64,000 nt of DNA from Escherichia coli. Its GTDB lineage: Bacteria > Pseudomonadota > Gammaproteobacteria > Enterobacterales > Enterobacteriaceae. The stretch is taken from the NCBI RefSeq assembly GCF_009931435.1, contig NZ_CP043414.1; one strand, 5' to 3'. Numbering within the stretch: the first letter of the stretch is position 1; every line of letters begins with the position of its first letter. The notes below the pieces were generated by a model. The model worked only from the letters and a program-made list of their open reading frames with translations. It ran no database searches and was not told the DNA's origin. The translations under genes and the position numbers were made by a program. This document shows, piece by piece, positions 49,178-56,172 of the stretch.

Positions 49178-49187
49178 AAGCTCATAT

Positions 49188-49225
49188 GCCCGGTTGCGTA
49201 CGCGTATACCGGGCAAATTTTTTCT
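49188..49225 (+). terminator. Rho-independent terminator downstream of sixA
   Basis: gcccggt-(loop)-accgggc stem followed by aaattttttc. Confidence 0.65.
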
Positions 49226-49722
49226 GTCCTAATTGTGAATATATTTTACATATCACGAATTTTATTATCTTTCTTGTTATTGAATATTGTAATAACACAG
49301 TGGAATAATGGTTTTGTATCTTGAATATAAATTAATTAATTTAATCAAGAATGAATCTTAGCAATAAATAAATGCAAAATCATTATAAATTCTTTTAGTG
49401 GTTTTTATATCCAATTCATTCATATTAGTTATGAAATCTTTCTTTTTTTTGATGGCGCGCATGTATTTTTATTGAAAATCGAGAGGGATATTCTGGTTGT
49501 GTATTGATTAATTAAATCTACATAAGTGTTTAAGCATTACTACATTGATTGTTCTTAAAGATAAGACCAACATAACGACACACCAGAGAATATCTGTTTA
49601 CATTCTATGATTATTTGGGACATATGATGTTCAATGGTTAACTAAAAGCGTCAGACATAATATATACAATAATATTATGTCAGTTGCTTGTATTATACAT
49701 TTTAATGATTTAAGGACAAATA

Positions 49723-50283
49723 ATGATTAAGTTTGCCAAAACAGCCATTGCTGCCGCAATGGTGATGGGCGCAGTTGTCTCCGCGTCAGCATTTGCTGCA
49801 GGCAACAACGGTACTGCACGTTTCTACGGCACCATTGAAGACTCCCCGTGCTCTATCGTTCCAGACGATCACAAACTGGAAGTGGATTTAGGTAACATCG
49901 GTGCCGAAGTACTGAAAAACAACGGGACCACCACGCCGAAAGATTTTCAGATTCGTTTGCAGGACTGCGTATTTGATACCCAAACGAACATGGAAACGAC
50001 GTTCACCGGTAACGTTTCTACGGGAAACGAGAATTACTACACCATTTTTAATACCGATACAGGTGCTGCGTTTAACAATGTAAGCCTGGCGATTGGTGAT
50101 AAGCAAGGTACTTCCTATAAAAGCGGTGCTGGCATTAAACAGGCGATCGTAAATGACTCAGCAACCAATAAAGGCAAACCTAAACAGACTCTGAACTTCA
50201 AAGCCTGGTTAGTCGGTGCGACGGGTACGCCTGACCTGGGTGGTTTTGAAGCGAATACCACTTTCCAGATTACCTATCTCTAA
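49723..50283 (+). CDS. yfcV: Fimbrial major subunit (chaperone-usher pilus)
   Basis: 186 aa; signal peptide, conserved Cys pair and C-terminal beta-strand (TFQITYL). Confidence 0.85.
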   Translation: MIKFAKTAIAAAMVMGAVVSASAFAAGNNGTARFYGTIEDSPCSIVPDDHKLEVDLGNIGAEVLKNNGTTTPKDFQIRLQDCVFDTQTNMETTFTGNVSTGNENYYTIFNTDTGAAFNNVSLAIGDKQGTSYKSGAGIKQAIVNDSATNKGKPKQTLNFKAWLVGATGTPDLGGFEANTTFQITYL

Positions 50284-50355
50284 GGTAATTCACCCCCATA
50301 GCATCTCGCTATGGGGGATTTTGGCGAGTTTTTGGACTTATTATAATAATCACGG

Positions 50356-53791: not shown

Positions 53792-54307
53792 ATGAAATAC
53801 ACGTTTCTGGTGGGAACGGGCATTTTTCTCCTGAGCGGTTGGCTGATGGGGAACCTTGCCGTCGCAGGGCAAAGTAAACAGGTGTCATTGTCTTTGCGCG
53901 TTCTGGTGGATGGGCCACCGCCCTGTTCCGTAAAGGGGAGCAATGTGCAATTTGGCGAAGTCTACATTAGCAAAATCAATGGCACGAATTACCGCACCAC
54001 GCAGCCGTTTTATACCCTGAACTGTAGTAGCAGGGCTTCAGGTATTGATGATCTGCGGATGCAGCTTAAAGGCACCACTACCGTGATTAACGGGGAAACT
54101 GTCATTGCGACGGAAATACCCGGCCTGGGCATTCGCATTGAAAATGGTGCCGATAACTCTCTGTTCAGGGTGGGTGAAGGTAACTGGTCTGATTTTAATG
54201 TTAACCAGTTGCCCAATCTCAAAGCGGTGCCGGTAAAACAGAGTGGAGCGCAGCTTACGCCTGCGGAATTTAACGCCAGTATGACGATGGTGGTGGATTA
54301 CCAATGA
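53792..54307 (+). CDS. yfcR: Fimbrial minor subunit
   Basis: 171 aa fimbrial-type protein with signal peptide and C-terminal ...VVDYQ. Confidence 0.8.
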   Translation: MKYTFLVGTGIFLLSGWLMGNLAVAGQSKQVSLSLRVLVDGPPPCSVKGSNVQFGEVYISKINGTNYRTTQPFYTLNCSSRASGIDDLRMQLKGTTTVINGETVIATEIPGLGIRIENGADNSLFRVGEGNWSDFNVNQLPNLKAVPVKQSGAQLTPAEFNASMTMVVDYQ

Positions 54308-54792
54308 AAAAACGCTTGTTACTTTTACTCTGCACCTGCGGTGGCGTTGCGCTGGCGGCTGGGGATGACATCACCTTCCACGGTACGCTGGTGGCACCGC
54401 CTGCCTGTGCTATCAGCGATGGAAAGACCCTCGAAGTGGAATTTCCCGATCTCATCATCGACAGTATCAACGGAGACTATGGTCGCAAGGAAGTGGTATA
54501 TGGCCTGAGCTGTGACTCTGACACGCGCGATCCCGAGTGGAATATGACACTCACCTGGACGGGTACGCCGACCGCCTACAATAACGCGGCTATCGAAACA
54601 GACGTTCCCGGCTTTGGTATTGAGCTTCAGCATGATGGTCAGCGTTTTGAGCTGAATACTCCGCTTGCCATTAACGCCACCGATTTTACCCAAAAGCCGA
54701 AACTGGAGGCCGTGCCAGTGAAGTCAGCCGATGCGGTGCTGAGTGATACTACATTTTCAGCCTATGCAACATTGCGGGTGGATTATCAATGA
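54304..54792 (+). CDS. yfcQ: Fimbrial minor subunit
   Basis: 162 aa; signal peptide; C-terminal ...RVDYQ. Confidence 0.8.
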   Translation: MKKRLLLLLCTCGGVALAAGDDITFHGTLVAPPACAISDGKTLEVEFPDLIIDSINGDYGRKEVVYGLSCDSDTRDPEWNMTLTWTGTPTAYNNAAIETDVPGFGIELQHDGQRFELNTPLAINATDFTQKPKLEAVPVKSADAVLSDTTFSAYATLRVDYQ

Positions 54793-55328
54793 AGACAGAC
54801 CGTATTTGTTCACTCGGTTATGGGCTGTTAGCGGGCCTGCTGTTGATCGGCAGCACGCGTGCCCTGGCCGTGGACAACAACCTGCATTTTTACGGCAACT
54901 TAATTAGCCGCTCTTGTACGCTGGTGGTTGAGAGCGGGAATCTGGCCGAAGTCCATTTTCCAACTATCAGTCGTCGGGATCTTATGGTTGCGGGGGAGTC
55001 TGCGCACATCCCGGTGGTGTTTAAGCTGAAAGATTGTAAAGGGCCTGCGAGTTATCAGGTCCAGGTGACTCTTACCGGTACGGAAGACAGTGAACAGCCT
55101 GGTTTCCTGGCGCTGGATACCACATCAACCGCGCAAGGTGTGGGGATTGGGATGGAAACGACGGACGGTGTACGGGTGGCGATTAACGACCCAACCGGGG
55201 CGAAATTCACGCTTAGCGATGGCAGTAATGACATTAATTTCAGGGCCTGGTTACAGGCGAAAAGCGGTCGGGAAGTGACGATGGGCGATTTTACCGCCAA
55301 CCTGACGGCGACCTTCGAGTATATATAA
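54789..55328 (+). CDS. yfcP: Fimbrial minor subunit
   Basis: 179 aa; signal peptide; C-terminal ...TATFEYI. Confidence 0.8.
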   Translation: MKTDRICSLGYGLLAGLLLIGSTRALAVDNNLHFYGNLISRSCTLVVESGNLAEVHFPTISRRDLMVAGESAHIPVVFKLKDCKGPASYQVQVTLTGTEDSEQPGFLALDTTSTAQGVGIGMETTDGVRVAINDPTGAKFTLSDGSNDINFRAWLQAKSGREVTMGDFTANLTATFEYI

Positions 55329-55329
55329 T

Positions 55330-56172
55330 ATGAAAAAATGGACGGTTTTTTTTACAGGTCTGGTATTAATTGCTCTCGGTTTAGTAATTCCAAAGAGCTA
55401 TGCGGGTGATAAGCTCCTAAATGCAAATTTCCCAAGTGCCGAAATTTATTATGCAATTAATAATATCTCTATGCAGGGCAGTTTATATTTTTATGTCACA
55501 GTATTAACGCCAGAAGAAGTAGCCTATGGTCAATACAATTCAGGCGCAAGAAGAGGCGACACTCTCCAGGTAATATCCTGGACAGGATCGGGTCCTGCAC
55601 CAAAGTTAGTGCTTACAGACTTTGGCAATACAGCCACATCAAATTGTCCGGGTATCGATACGTCCATATATAAATGTGGATTTATGACTTTCAGTATCAC
55701 GGTATCATCTGATGATTATGGCTGCCCATGGATCGCCTCTTTTTATTCAGTTTCTCAGGCCAATGGATTTAGCGCATATAAAAGCCCAATAGAGCATAAT
55801 ACTGTTTGCCCGACAATTCCGGTATCTCCCTATGATATCTCCTGGAGTGATAGTTATGTTAGCCATACTAAAACGTTGCAATTACAATCCAATGGTTCAA
55901 CCATCACAACAACGCTTTCGACCTATCTGATGGAAAGTGGCAATCTCTGCGATGGCAGTAATTTTGATGCCAGAGGAGCATACTGTCGTGCAGTTTCAGA
56001 TTTATTAACGTTTACCTCTTATGGTTGCGATAGTACACAGGTGACAGTCACACCGACACGTAAACCGTTAACGGATAGAAAACTCCACGATATTGTGGTG
56101 AAGGTAAATACCAGTAGTCGGCAACCGATTGATTCTACGTGCCGTTTCCAGTATGTACTGAACGAATTGTAA
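55330..56172 (+). CDS. yfcO: Putative fimbrial tip protein / adhesin-like protein
   Basis: 280 aa with signal peptide; last gene of the yfc operon, lower GC. Confidence 0.75.
   Translation: MKKWTVFFTGLVLIALGLVIPKSYAGDKLLNANFPSAEIYYAINNISMQGSLYFYVTVLTPEEVAYGQYNSGARRGDTLQVISWTGSGPAPKLVLTDFGNTATSNCPGIDTSIYKCGFMTFSITVSSDDYGCPWIASFYSVSQANGFSAYKSPIEHNTVCPTIPVSPYDISWSDSYVSHTKTLQLQSNGSTITTTLSTYLMESGNLCDGSNFDARGAYCRAVSDLLTFTSYGCDSTQVTVTPTRKPLTDRKLHDIVVKVNTSSRQPIDSTCRFQYVLNEL

What the first reader, a model, noticed from the sequence alone, without database searches (positions are those of the whole stretch)
49178..56172. Apparently intact yfc chaperone-usher fimbrial operon with a 545-bp AT-rich leader
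All seven genes (major subunit, 882-aa usher, chaperone, three minor subunits, tip protein) are uninterrupted. I recall the usher being disrupted in K-12, so this strain may be able to assemble Yfc fimbriae. The upstream region 49178..49722 is very AT-rich with short inverted repeats (for example cttga-N20-tcaag near 49320..49350), typical of H-NS-silenced or phase-variable fimbrial promoters.
Basis: partly seen in the sequence, partly recalled or inferred. Interest (0 to 1): 0.3.

Follow-up and report, generated by a model that had tools for sequence, protein, structure and literature searches.

The report
Intact Yfc fimbrial operon, divergent allele
This is the ordinary, already known Yfc adhesive-fimbria gene cluster at its usual chromosomal site, complete in this strain as in most E. 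coli, though here it is a deeply diverged version from a sister lineage of E. coli with a different adhesin tip.

Summary
Seven uninterrupted genes at 49723-56172 encode a major pilin, usher, chaperone, three minor pilins and a YfcO-type tip protein. They sit between sixA and smrB, the K-12 yfc position. The 545-bp upstream region has 27% G+C, the lowest of any stretch that size in the window. K-12 yfcU is indeed a pseudogene, with a single amber codon (TAG579) where this window has TAC.

The interpretation needs correcting. An intact usher is the norm, and K-12 is the exception. The cited 5-bp inverted repeat is at chance level. There are no GATC sites, no recombinase gene and no inverted copies in relatives, so nothing supports a phase switch. 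H-NS silencing is plausible but rests on composition and K-12 literature only.

- The window comes from Escherichia cryptic clade I. Its yfc genes are an ancient allele: about 78% nucleotide identity to K-12, dS about 1-2 against 0.23 for sixA, and dN/dS 0.06-0.16.
- The N-terminal half of the adhesin is a swapped cassette, even among near-identical clade-I strains.
- A hairpin after the major-pilin gene is conserved with compensatory changes.

This is a known system of low interest.

The parts
49178..49722 (.). sixA-yfcV intergenic region, 545 bp, 27% G+C. Presumed promoter and regulatory region and a likely H-NS target (inferred).
   Evidence: lowest-GC 545-bp stretch in the window; no GATC; promoter-like hits do not exceed shuffles (3 against 4.2); no Rfam family; about 78% identical to the B2-allele spacer, and aligned to the K-12 spacer only in short blocks.
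49184..49226 (+). Terminator-like hairpin after sixA (GCCCGGT...ACCGGGC, then AAATTTTTT). It belongs to sixA, not to yfc.
   Evidence: (I3: 11-nt arms, 91% complementary) and the sequence. The terminator role is inferred.
49507..49523 (+). ATTAATTAAATCTACAT, the longest spacer block conserved between the clade-I, B2 and K-12 alleles. A candidate regulatory or promoter element; function unknown.
   Evidence: Alignments.
49654..49681 (+). Perfect 10-bp inverted repeat GACATAATAT-N8-ATATTATGTC, 42 bp upstream of the start codon. It forms the core of a predicted hairpin.
   Evidence: fold z = -2.3; 1 observed against 0.12 expected; 8% of shuffles reach it. Mostly kept in the B2 allele, absent in K-12. 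Significance is marginal.
49712..49716 (+). Shine-Dalgarno AAGGA of yfcV, within TTTAAGGACAAATAATG, which is invariant in all alleles compared.
49723..50283 (+). Major pilin (YfcV homologue), 186 aa, with a signal peptide, Gly at -14 and a penultimate Tyr.
   Evidence: PF00419, 5.7e-17; 82% amino-acid identity to K-12 YfcV.
50293..50317 (+). Intercistronic hairpin CCCCCATAGC-ATCTC-GCTATGGGGG followed by ATTTTGG. A likely partial terminator or mRNA-stabilising stem after the major-pilin gene.
   Evidence: 10 pairs, 3 of them with compensatory double changes across four diverged alleles. The role is inferred by analogy with pap.
50356..53004 (+). Outer-membrane usher (YfcU homologue), 882 aa (878 aa from ATG 50368), uninterrupted.
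   Evidence: PapC_N, Usher 4e-184, PapC_C; NF011812, 1807 bits against cutoff 972; 84% identity to K-12; TAC where K-12 has TAG579.
53024..53776 (+). Periplasmic chaperone (YfcS homologue), 250 aa.
   Evidence: PapD_N 3e-37, PapD_C 1e-11; 83% identity to K-12.
53792..54307 (+). Minor pilin (YfcR homologue), 171 aa.
   Evidence: 58% identity to K-12; SteD/StfE-like.
54304..54792 (+). Minor pilin (YfcQ homologue), 162 aa. It overlaps the previous gene by 4 nt.
   Evidence: (78% identity to K-12).
54789..55328 (+). Minor pilin (YfcP homologue), 179 aa. It overlaps the previous gene by 4 nt.
   Evidence: (72% identity to K-12).
55330..56172 (+). StfH/YfcO-family putative tip adhesin, 280 aa, about 41% G+C. 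The N-terminal half (about 55405-55806) is hypervariable; the C-terminal half (about 55807-56169) is conserved.
56180..56211 (.). Perfect 14-bp hairpin (CTTTCACCGACCAG-TTAG-CTGGTCGGTGAAAG) between the convergent yfcO and smrB genes. A likely bidirectional transcription stop.
   Evidence: identical in R32_14_1F. The scan did not list it because there is no T-run. The role is inferred.

Best explanation
The region is a complete allele of the core-associated Yfc chaperone-usher fimbrial operon (pi-type, Stf/Ste-like), carried by an Escherichia cryptic clade I strain at the usual sixA-smrB site.

Inferred mechanism, from the established chaperone-usher pathway:
- The subunits are exported by Sec.
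- The YfcS-like chaperone captures them in the periplasm.
- They are polymerised at the YfcU-like usher by donor-strand exchange.
- The fibre has the YfcO-like protein at the tip, then the three minor pilins as adaptors, then a YfcV shaft.
- A conserved hairpin after yfcV probably sets the excess of major pilin over the downstream products.

Transcription from the 27% G+C upstream region is probably silenced by H-NS under laboratory conditions, as reported for the cryptic fimbriae of K-12. There is no sign of an invertible or Dam-dependent switch.

The locus is an old polymorphism. The allele classes (clade I, K-12 type, B2 type) differ at saturated synonymous sites, yet each evolves under purifying selection. 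The N-terminal, presumably receptor-binding, half of the adhesin is exchanged as a cassette.
For: Shown:
- Gene content and domains.
- Synteny with K-12 yfcV-U-S-R-Q-P-O.
- Signal peptides, pilin C-terminal Tyr/Gly motifs and 4-nt gene overlaps.
- The usher scores 1807 bits on NF011812, and the chaperone and pilins are closest to the Stf/Ste models.
- The E. coli W genome paper classifies the sixA-yfcN cluster as pi-type.
- Clade I origin: the flanks are 98.7-99% identical to about 19-21 genomes, including 2013C-4282, which PMC10100065 lists as clade I. They are 93-95% identical to about 5,380 other genomes.
- The identity profile drops sharply at 49178 and recovers at 56200.
- dS is 0.96-2.0 for yfc genes against 0.23 for sixA, and dN/dS is 0.06-0.16.
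- The adhesin has a variable N-terminal half and a conserved C-terminal half. Near-identical operons carry adhesins only 43-44% identical.
- The intercistronic hairpin has 3 compensatory pairs.

From the literature: YfcO contributes to adherence in APEC (Li 2016, as cited in PMC8069529), and cryptic CU fimbriae are H-NS repressed (PMC3559732).
Against: - No expression, H-NS binding or piliation data exist for this allele.
- No promoter could be placed.
- Its C-terminus lacks the penultimate-Tyr motif of the pilins.
Confidence: 0.85

Rival explanations
1. The upstream region is a phase-variable switch. Either it is a fim-like invertible promoter segment bounded by inverted repeats, or it is a pap-like Dam/Lrp methylation switch.
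For: - The spacer is long, AT-rich and contains many short inverted repeats.
- A perfect 10-bp inverted repeat lies at 49654-49681.
- Related pi-type pap operons are phase variable (established knowledge).
Against: - There are 0 GATC sites in the spacer.
- There is no recombinase or PapI/PapB-like ORF. The largest ORF lying wholly in the spacer is 40 aa (44 aa if overlapping ORFs are counted), and the neighbours are sixA and structural genes.
- Short inverted repeats are at shuffle level.
- The spacer is colinear at 90-100% identity in four clade-I loci, and the full-length matches in 21 genomes are single-orientation.
Confidence: 0.04
2. The operon is an intact-looking but functionally silent relic on its way to decay. 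It plays no present role in adhesion.
For: - Yfc is cryptic in the laboratory in K-12.
- Deleting CU operons improved the growth of MG1655 (PMC8174762 abstract).
Against: - dN/dS is 0.06-0.16 over all alignable genes despite saturated dS.
- All seven ORFs are intact here and in L003, L004, L008 and L009.
- A structural hairpin is preserved by compensatory changes.
- An APEC yfcO mutant was reported to adhere less well.
Confidence: 0.12
3. The divergent operon was imported recently from another enterobacterial species, replacing the resident allele by homologous recombination in the flanks. On this reading it is not an ancient allele maintained within Escherichia.
For: - The divergence boundaries at 49178 and 56200 are sharp.
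- dS is above 1.
- The spacer and the adhesin gene have low G+C.
- YfcO-family proteins also occur in Citrobacter and Pseudocitrobacter.
Against: - The V-to-P genes have host-like G+C of about 0.47-0.60.
- There are no mobility genes.
- All approximately 21 complete clade-I genomes share the allele.
- The K-12 and B2 alleles within E. coli sensu stricto are just as far apart from each other.
- The nearest non-Escherichia adhesins are only about 44-46% identical.
- The two readings are not mutually exclusive over long time scales.
Confidence: 0.15

Closest known systems
E. coli K-12 yfcOPQRSUV (Yfc fimbriae; Korea et al. 2010; Wurpel et al. 2013, PMC3559732)
   Same: - Same chromosomal site (sixA-smrB), with the same seven genes in the same order and nearly the same lengths.
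- The ribosome-binding site is shared, as are several spacer blocks.
- An AT-rich upstream region is present in both.
   Different: - Nucleotide identity is only about 78% over V-U-S and 65-76% over R-Q-P.
- Protein identities are 82/84/83/58/78/72/41%, against 96-97% for the flanking proteins.
- The usher is intact here, while K-12 has TAG at codon 579.
- The spacer is 545 bp here against 680 bp in K-12, and is largely unalignable.
B2/UPEC yfc allele (e.g. NRG 857C; yfcV is used as a UPEC marker)
   Same: - Same site and architecture.
- The spacer resembles the window's more than the K-12 spacer does (about 78-83% identity), and mostly keeps the 10-bp inverted repeat.
   Different: - Structural genes are 59-76% identical at the protein level.
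- The adhesin is 44% identical.
Salmonella Stf and Ste fimbriae (pi-type)
   Same: These are the best NCBIfam models for every subunit: StfA/SteA, the StfC-type usher subfamily, StfD, StfE/SteD, StfF/SteE and StfG/SteF. NCBI names the last gene 'StfH/YfcO family fimbrial adhesin'.
   Different: All pilin and chaperone scores fall below the Stf/Ste equivalog cut-offs. According to the literature the Salmonella operons occupy a different chromosomal location; this was not tested here.
Pap (P) fimbriae, the archetypal pi-type system
   Same: - Chaperone-usher assembly.
- A major pilin gene first, followed by a stem-loop.
- Several adaptor pilins and an allelically variable terminal adhesin.
   Different: - No papI/papB regulators and no GATC pair.
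- The adhesin is DUF2544 and is not related to PapG by sequence or by fold search.
- The locus is in the core genome, not on a pathogenicity island.

Membership tests
Chaperone-usher fimbrial operon | Outer-membrane usher with an N-terminal domain, a barrel/plug and a C-terminal domain | tested here: met
   PapC_N 5.6e-34, Usher 4.1e-184 (profile positions 3-549 of 549), PapC_C 1.1e-15. The ORF is uninterrupted.
Chaperone-usher fimbrial operon | PapD-like two-domain periplasmic chaperone | tested here: met
   PapD_N 3.4e-37 and PapD_C 1.1e-11.
Chaperone-usher fimbrial operon | Secreted pilin subunits with the Fimbrial domain and a C-terminal beta-strand motif (penultimate Tyr) | tested here: met
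   PF00419 in V, R, Q and P; signal-peptide-like N-termini, and C-termini ...ITYL...VDYQ...VDYQ and ...FEYI.
Chaperone-usher fimbrial operon | Two-domain tip adhesin (receptor-binding domain plus pilin domain) | tested here: inconclusive
   - hypervariable N-terminal half, conserved C-terminal half.
- confident beta-rich AF2 model (pLDDT 83.6, pTM 0.73), consistent with two beta-sandwich domains; domain boundaries were not parsed.
Yfc fimbrial type (Wurpel 2013: usher phylogeny plus locus position) | Located between sixA and smrB (yfcN) | tested here: met
   flank matches.
Yfc fimbrial type (Wurpel 2013: usher phylogeny plus locus position) | Usher groups with YfcU | tested here: met
   84% identity to K-12 YfcU over the full length. 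NF011812 subfamily score is 1807 bits against a cutoff of 972. No formal tree was built.
pi clade of CU fimbriae (Nuccio and Baumler) | Usher closer to the Pap/Stf/Ste/Std ushers than to gamma-clade ushers (FimD, LpfC) | tested here: met
   Stf-type 1807 bits, Ste-type 1118 bits and StdB 553 bits, against FimD 264 bits and LpfC 270 bits. PMC3032704 labels the sixA-yfcN cluster pi.
H-NS-silenced promoter region | AT-rich DNA well below the genome average | tested here: met
   27.0% G+C against 48.2% for the window.
H-NS-silenced promoter region | H-NS occupancy, and derepression in an hns mutant | not testable with these tools
   Only indirect support: Wurpel 2013, citing Korea 2010, for the cryptic fimbriae of K-12. 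Korea 2010 is not held in the library.
fim-type invertible promoter switch | Adjacent site-specific recombinase gene | tested here: not met
   There is no ORF between sixA and yfcV of the size of a recombinase. The largest ORF lying wholly in the spacer is 40 aa, and the largest overlapping it is 44 aa.
fim-type invertible promoter switch | Significant inverted repeats bounding a segment that is found in both orientations | tested here: not met
   Inverted repeats are at shuffle level. The spacer is colinear in all relatives compared.
pap-type Dam/Lrp phase variation | Two GATC sites in the regulatory region, plus PapI/PapB-like regulators | tested here: not met
   There are 0 GATC sites in 49178-49722 and no regulator ORFs.

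The most novel reading that the evidence does not exclude
The sixA-smrB yfc locus is a long-term balanced polymorphism built from exchangeable modules: spacer, V-U-S, R-Q-P and the adhesin N-terminal domain. On this reading the adhesin type in this window gives a receptor or host specificity distinct from the K-12 and B2 types, and this contributes to how cryptic clade I colonises livestock and humans. The window's adhesin type is 99% identical in a few clade-I strains and 63-81% identical in some E. coli strains.
Probability: 0.3. Interest if true: 0.35.

Novelty: already known. Interest (0 to 1): 0.17.

Why it matters
It matters little beyond housekeeping. The finding confirms that the K-12 yfcU pseudogene is a single strain-lineage nonsense mutation rather than a property of the operon, and that intact Yfc operons are the rule.

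The more useful by-products are these:
- The window comes from cryptic clade I, a lineage recently flagged as a source of STEC/ETEC-type pathogens.
- The yfc locus is one of the most diverged core-position loci between that lineage and E. coli proper, yet it remains under purifying selection.
- Its adhesin head is swapped between otherwise near-identical strains.

That makes YfcO alleles a possible typing or host-tropism marker. It also argues that 'cryptic' Yfc fimbriae are used in nature.

Tried and rejected
- **PDB sequence search of the tip protein:** no relative found.
- **Rfam on the spacer:** at E-value threshold 1, only two sub-threshold chance hits. At gathering thresholds, nothing in the yfc region.
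- **Sigma-70 consensus scan of the spacer:** hits did not exceed shuffles, so no promoter was assigned.
- **The 10-bp perfect inverted repeat and its hairpin:** marginal statistics (p about 0.08, fold z = -2.3) and not conserved in K-12, so it is recorded but not interpreted.
- **Exact look-up of the window's adhesin:** not on record. The 99% relative P0001 is on 14 contigs, and the two places shown carry the same intact seven-gene operon.
- **Korea et al. 2010:** this primary source on Yfc function and H-NS could not be read. A search for yfc-specific H-NS data found nothing direct.
- **Phase-variation readings (fim-like and pap-like):** considered and rejected. The evidence is in the membership tests.
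- **Scan of the species-representative genome collection:** not run. The clade-I assignment was already obtained more cheaply from RefSeq matches plus PMC10100065.
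Full report
**1. What is in the sequence**

The interval 49723-56172 holds seven consecutive, uninterrupted + strand ORFs of 186, 882, 250, 171, 162, 179 and 280 aa. Pfam assigns them as follows:
- the Fimbrial domain to the first gene and to the three 160-180 aa genes;
- PapC_N, Usher and PapC_C to the 882-aa protein;
- PapD_N and PapD_C to the 250-aa protein;
- DUF2544, the YfcO family, to the last gene.

The neighbours are sixA (48692-49177) and a convergent smrB/yfcN (56230-56781). K-12 MG1655 has exactly this arrangement around yfcV-U-S-R-Q-P-O.

All products start with signal-peptide-like sequences. 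The four pilins end in the classical ...Y-x motif. Genes R/Q and Q/P overlap by 4 nt.

RefSeq starts the usher in close relatives at the second ATG, equivalent to 50368, which gives 878 aa. The NCBIfam usher model also begins at residue 5. The start codon is therefore ambiguous, but the frame is open either way.

**2.

The spacer 49178-49722 is 545 bp with 27.0% G+C, and it is the most AT-rich stretch of that length in the window.

K-12 yfcU is a pseudogene (b4661). The defect is a single in-frame amber codon, TAG at codon 579, where the window reads TAC. It is a nonsense mutation, not a frameshift.

The inverted repeat cttga-N20-tcaag exists, but repeats of this kind are at shuffle frequency: 20 observed against 14.9 +/- 5.0.

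Part of the spacer belongs to sixA. A GCCCGGT/ACCGGGC hairpin followed by a T-run lies at 49184-49226.

A consensus promoter scan finds no more sites than shuffles do. Rfam finds nothing in the spacer. 'Leader' is therefore an assumption.

**3. No support for a phase switch**

- The spacer has no GATC site.
- It has no ORF of the size of a recombinase or a PapI/PapB-type regulator. The largest ORF lying wholly inside it is 40 aa, and the largest overlapping it is 44 aa.
- It is colinear at 90-100% identity in four related loci.
- The 21 near-full-length genome matches are each a single-orientation place.
- The best inverted repeat, a perfect 10-bp pair at 49654-49681, is only marginally unexpected: 8% of shuffles reach it. 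Its fold z-score is -2.3. It is absent from the K-12 allele.

H-NS silencing remains the most reasonable expectation from composition. Wurpel et al. 2013, citing Korea et al. 2010, state that the cryptic fimbriae of commensal E. coli are H-NS repressed. It cannot be tested here, and the primary paper was not available.

**4. Where the window comes from**

The flanking core genes are only 93-95% identical to about 5,380 of 5,426 complete E. coli genomes. They are 98.7-99.4% identical to about 19-21 genomes. One of those is 2013C-4282, which PMC10100065 lists among the complete genomes of Escherichia cryptic clade I.

That paper gives ANI above 98.3% within clade I and above 95.9% between clade I and E. 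coli sensu stricto. A draft clade-I-like assembly carrying the same operon is 98.4% identical to the window over 14 kb. The window is therefore from a clade-I strain.

**5. The operon is a deeply diverged allele**

Against K-12 and a B2 strain, nucleotide identity falls from about 93% to below 80% exactly at the end of sixA (49178). It stays at 61-87% through the operon, is lost over the first half of the last gene, and returns to 88-97% at smrB.

Protein identities to K-12 are 82, 84, 83, 58, 78, 72 and 41% for V, U, S, R, Q, P and O. SixA and SmrB are 96-97% identical.

Synonymous divergence is 0.96-2.0 for the yfc genes against 0.23 for sixA. dN/dS is only 0.06-0.16. The K-12 and B2 alleles are as far from each other as either is from the window.

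These are therefore old allele classes, each kept under purifying selection. That argues the operon is used in nature even though it is 'cryptic' in the laboratory.

The literature already points to this kind of variation:
- Yfc genes have unusually high nucleotide diversity, and their trees disagree with MLST (PMC4850163).
- E. coli W and O157:H7 carry a different pi-type cluster at the sixA-yfcN site (PMC3032704).

**6. The tip protein**

Across six alleles, the C-terminal ~120 residues are well conserved and the N-terminal ~135 mature residues are hypervariable.

A database search returned more than 170 clusters of this family at 90% identity, mostly from Escherichia. One of them is a 99% match in NCBI.

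The 'two-domain tip adhesin' reading rests on four things:
- gene position;
- the pattern of variation;
- the NCBI family name;
- a reported adherence defect of an APEC yfcO mutant (cited in PMC8069529).

It is inferred rather than demonstrated.

**7.

- A 10-bp G+C-rich hairpin followed by ATTTTGG lies between the major-pilin and usher genes, at 50293-50317. It is preserved in the K-12, B2 and 06-00048 alleles, with compensatory changes at 3 of 10 pairs. It is most likely a partial terminator or stabiliser that raises major-pilin output relative to the assembly genes, as is established for pap.
- A perfect 14-bp hairpin lies between the convergent yfcO and smrB genes, at 56180-56211.

**8. 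Intactness in context**

Most E. coli genomes carry an annotated intact yfcU, and Wurpel 2013 describes yfc as intact in all genomes surveyed. That statement sits oddly with the K-12 amber codon seen here.

Inactivation does recur sporadically:
- K-12 has the nonsense codon in the usher.
- 2EC1 has a frameshifted usher plus IS2 in the adhesin.
- 06-00048 has a yfcV frameshift.

The window's complete set is therefore normal, not remarkable.

**9. Verdict**

The object is the known Yfc chaperone-usher operon in an intact, clade-I-specific allelic form with its own adhesin head.

The mechanism is inferred from family membership: chaperone-usher assembly, probable H-NS silencing, and stoichiometry control by the hairpin. 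No phase-variation machinery is present. Novelty is 'already known', and interest is low.

Noticed in passing
window 1-64000 (flanks tested: 40000-49177 and 56200-61200): The tested flanks are only about 93-95% identical to mainstream E. coli but about 99% identical to a small set of genomes that includes the cryptic clade I strain 2013C-4282. The source is therefore a clade-I Escherichia, not E. coli sensu stricto.
   Followed up: yes
window 61567-61833 (+): Three tandem matches to Rfam naRNA4 (a REP-derived nucleoid-associated RNA), each about 79 nt with a 94-nt period. Comparison with the related draft contig L008 suggests a different copy number there.
   Followed up: partly
window 38969-39043 (-): tRNA-Arg (anticodon CCU), the only tRNA in the window. 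This tRNA is a classic integration site in E. coli. The neighbourhood was not examined for an island or its absence.
   Followed up: no
window 41282-42481 (-): A low-G+C (about 31-35%) 399-aa ORF lies between mlaA and fadL, where K-12 has yfdF. Matching genomes annotate this position either as yfdF or as 'hypothetical protein', which suggests another variable locus.
   Followed up: no
window 56230-56781 (-), smrB: Synonymous divergence of smrB from E. coli K-12 and B2 is 0.65-0.66, about three times that of sixA (0.21-0.23) on the other side of the operon. It looks as if divergence linked to the adhesin end of the locus spills into the flank.
   Followed up: partly
[not shown]
   Followed up: partly
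L001 7357-10002 (K-12 yfcU) against PMC3559732: Wurpel 2013 states that yfc was the only core fimbrial cluster intact in all genomes examined. K-12 MG1655 yfcU, however, carries an amber codon and is a RefSeq pseudogene. Amber-suppressor (supE) laboratory strains might read through it.
   Followed up: no
L007 11588-11906 (B2 strain NRG 857C): The yfcO-smrB spacer is 319 bp in the B2 allele, against 57 bp in the window and 70 bp in K-12. There is extra sequence of unknown content at the adhesin end of the locus.
   Followed up: no
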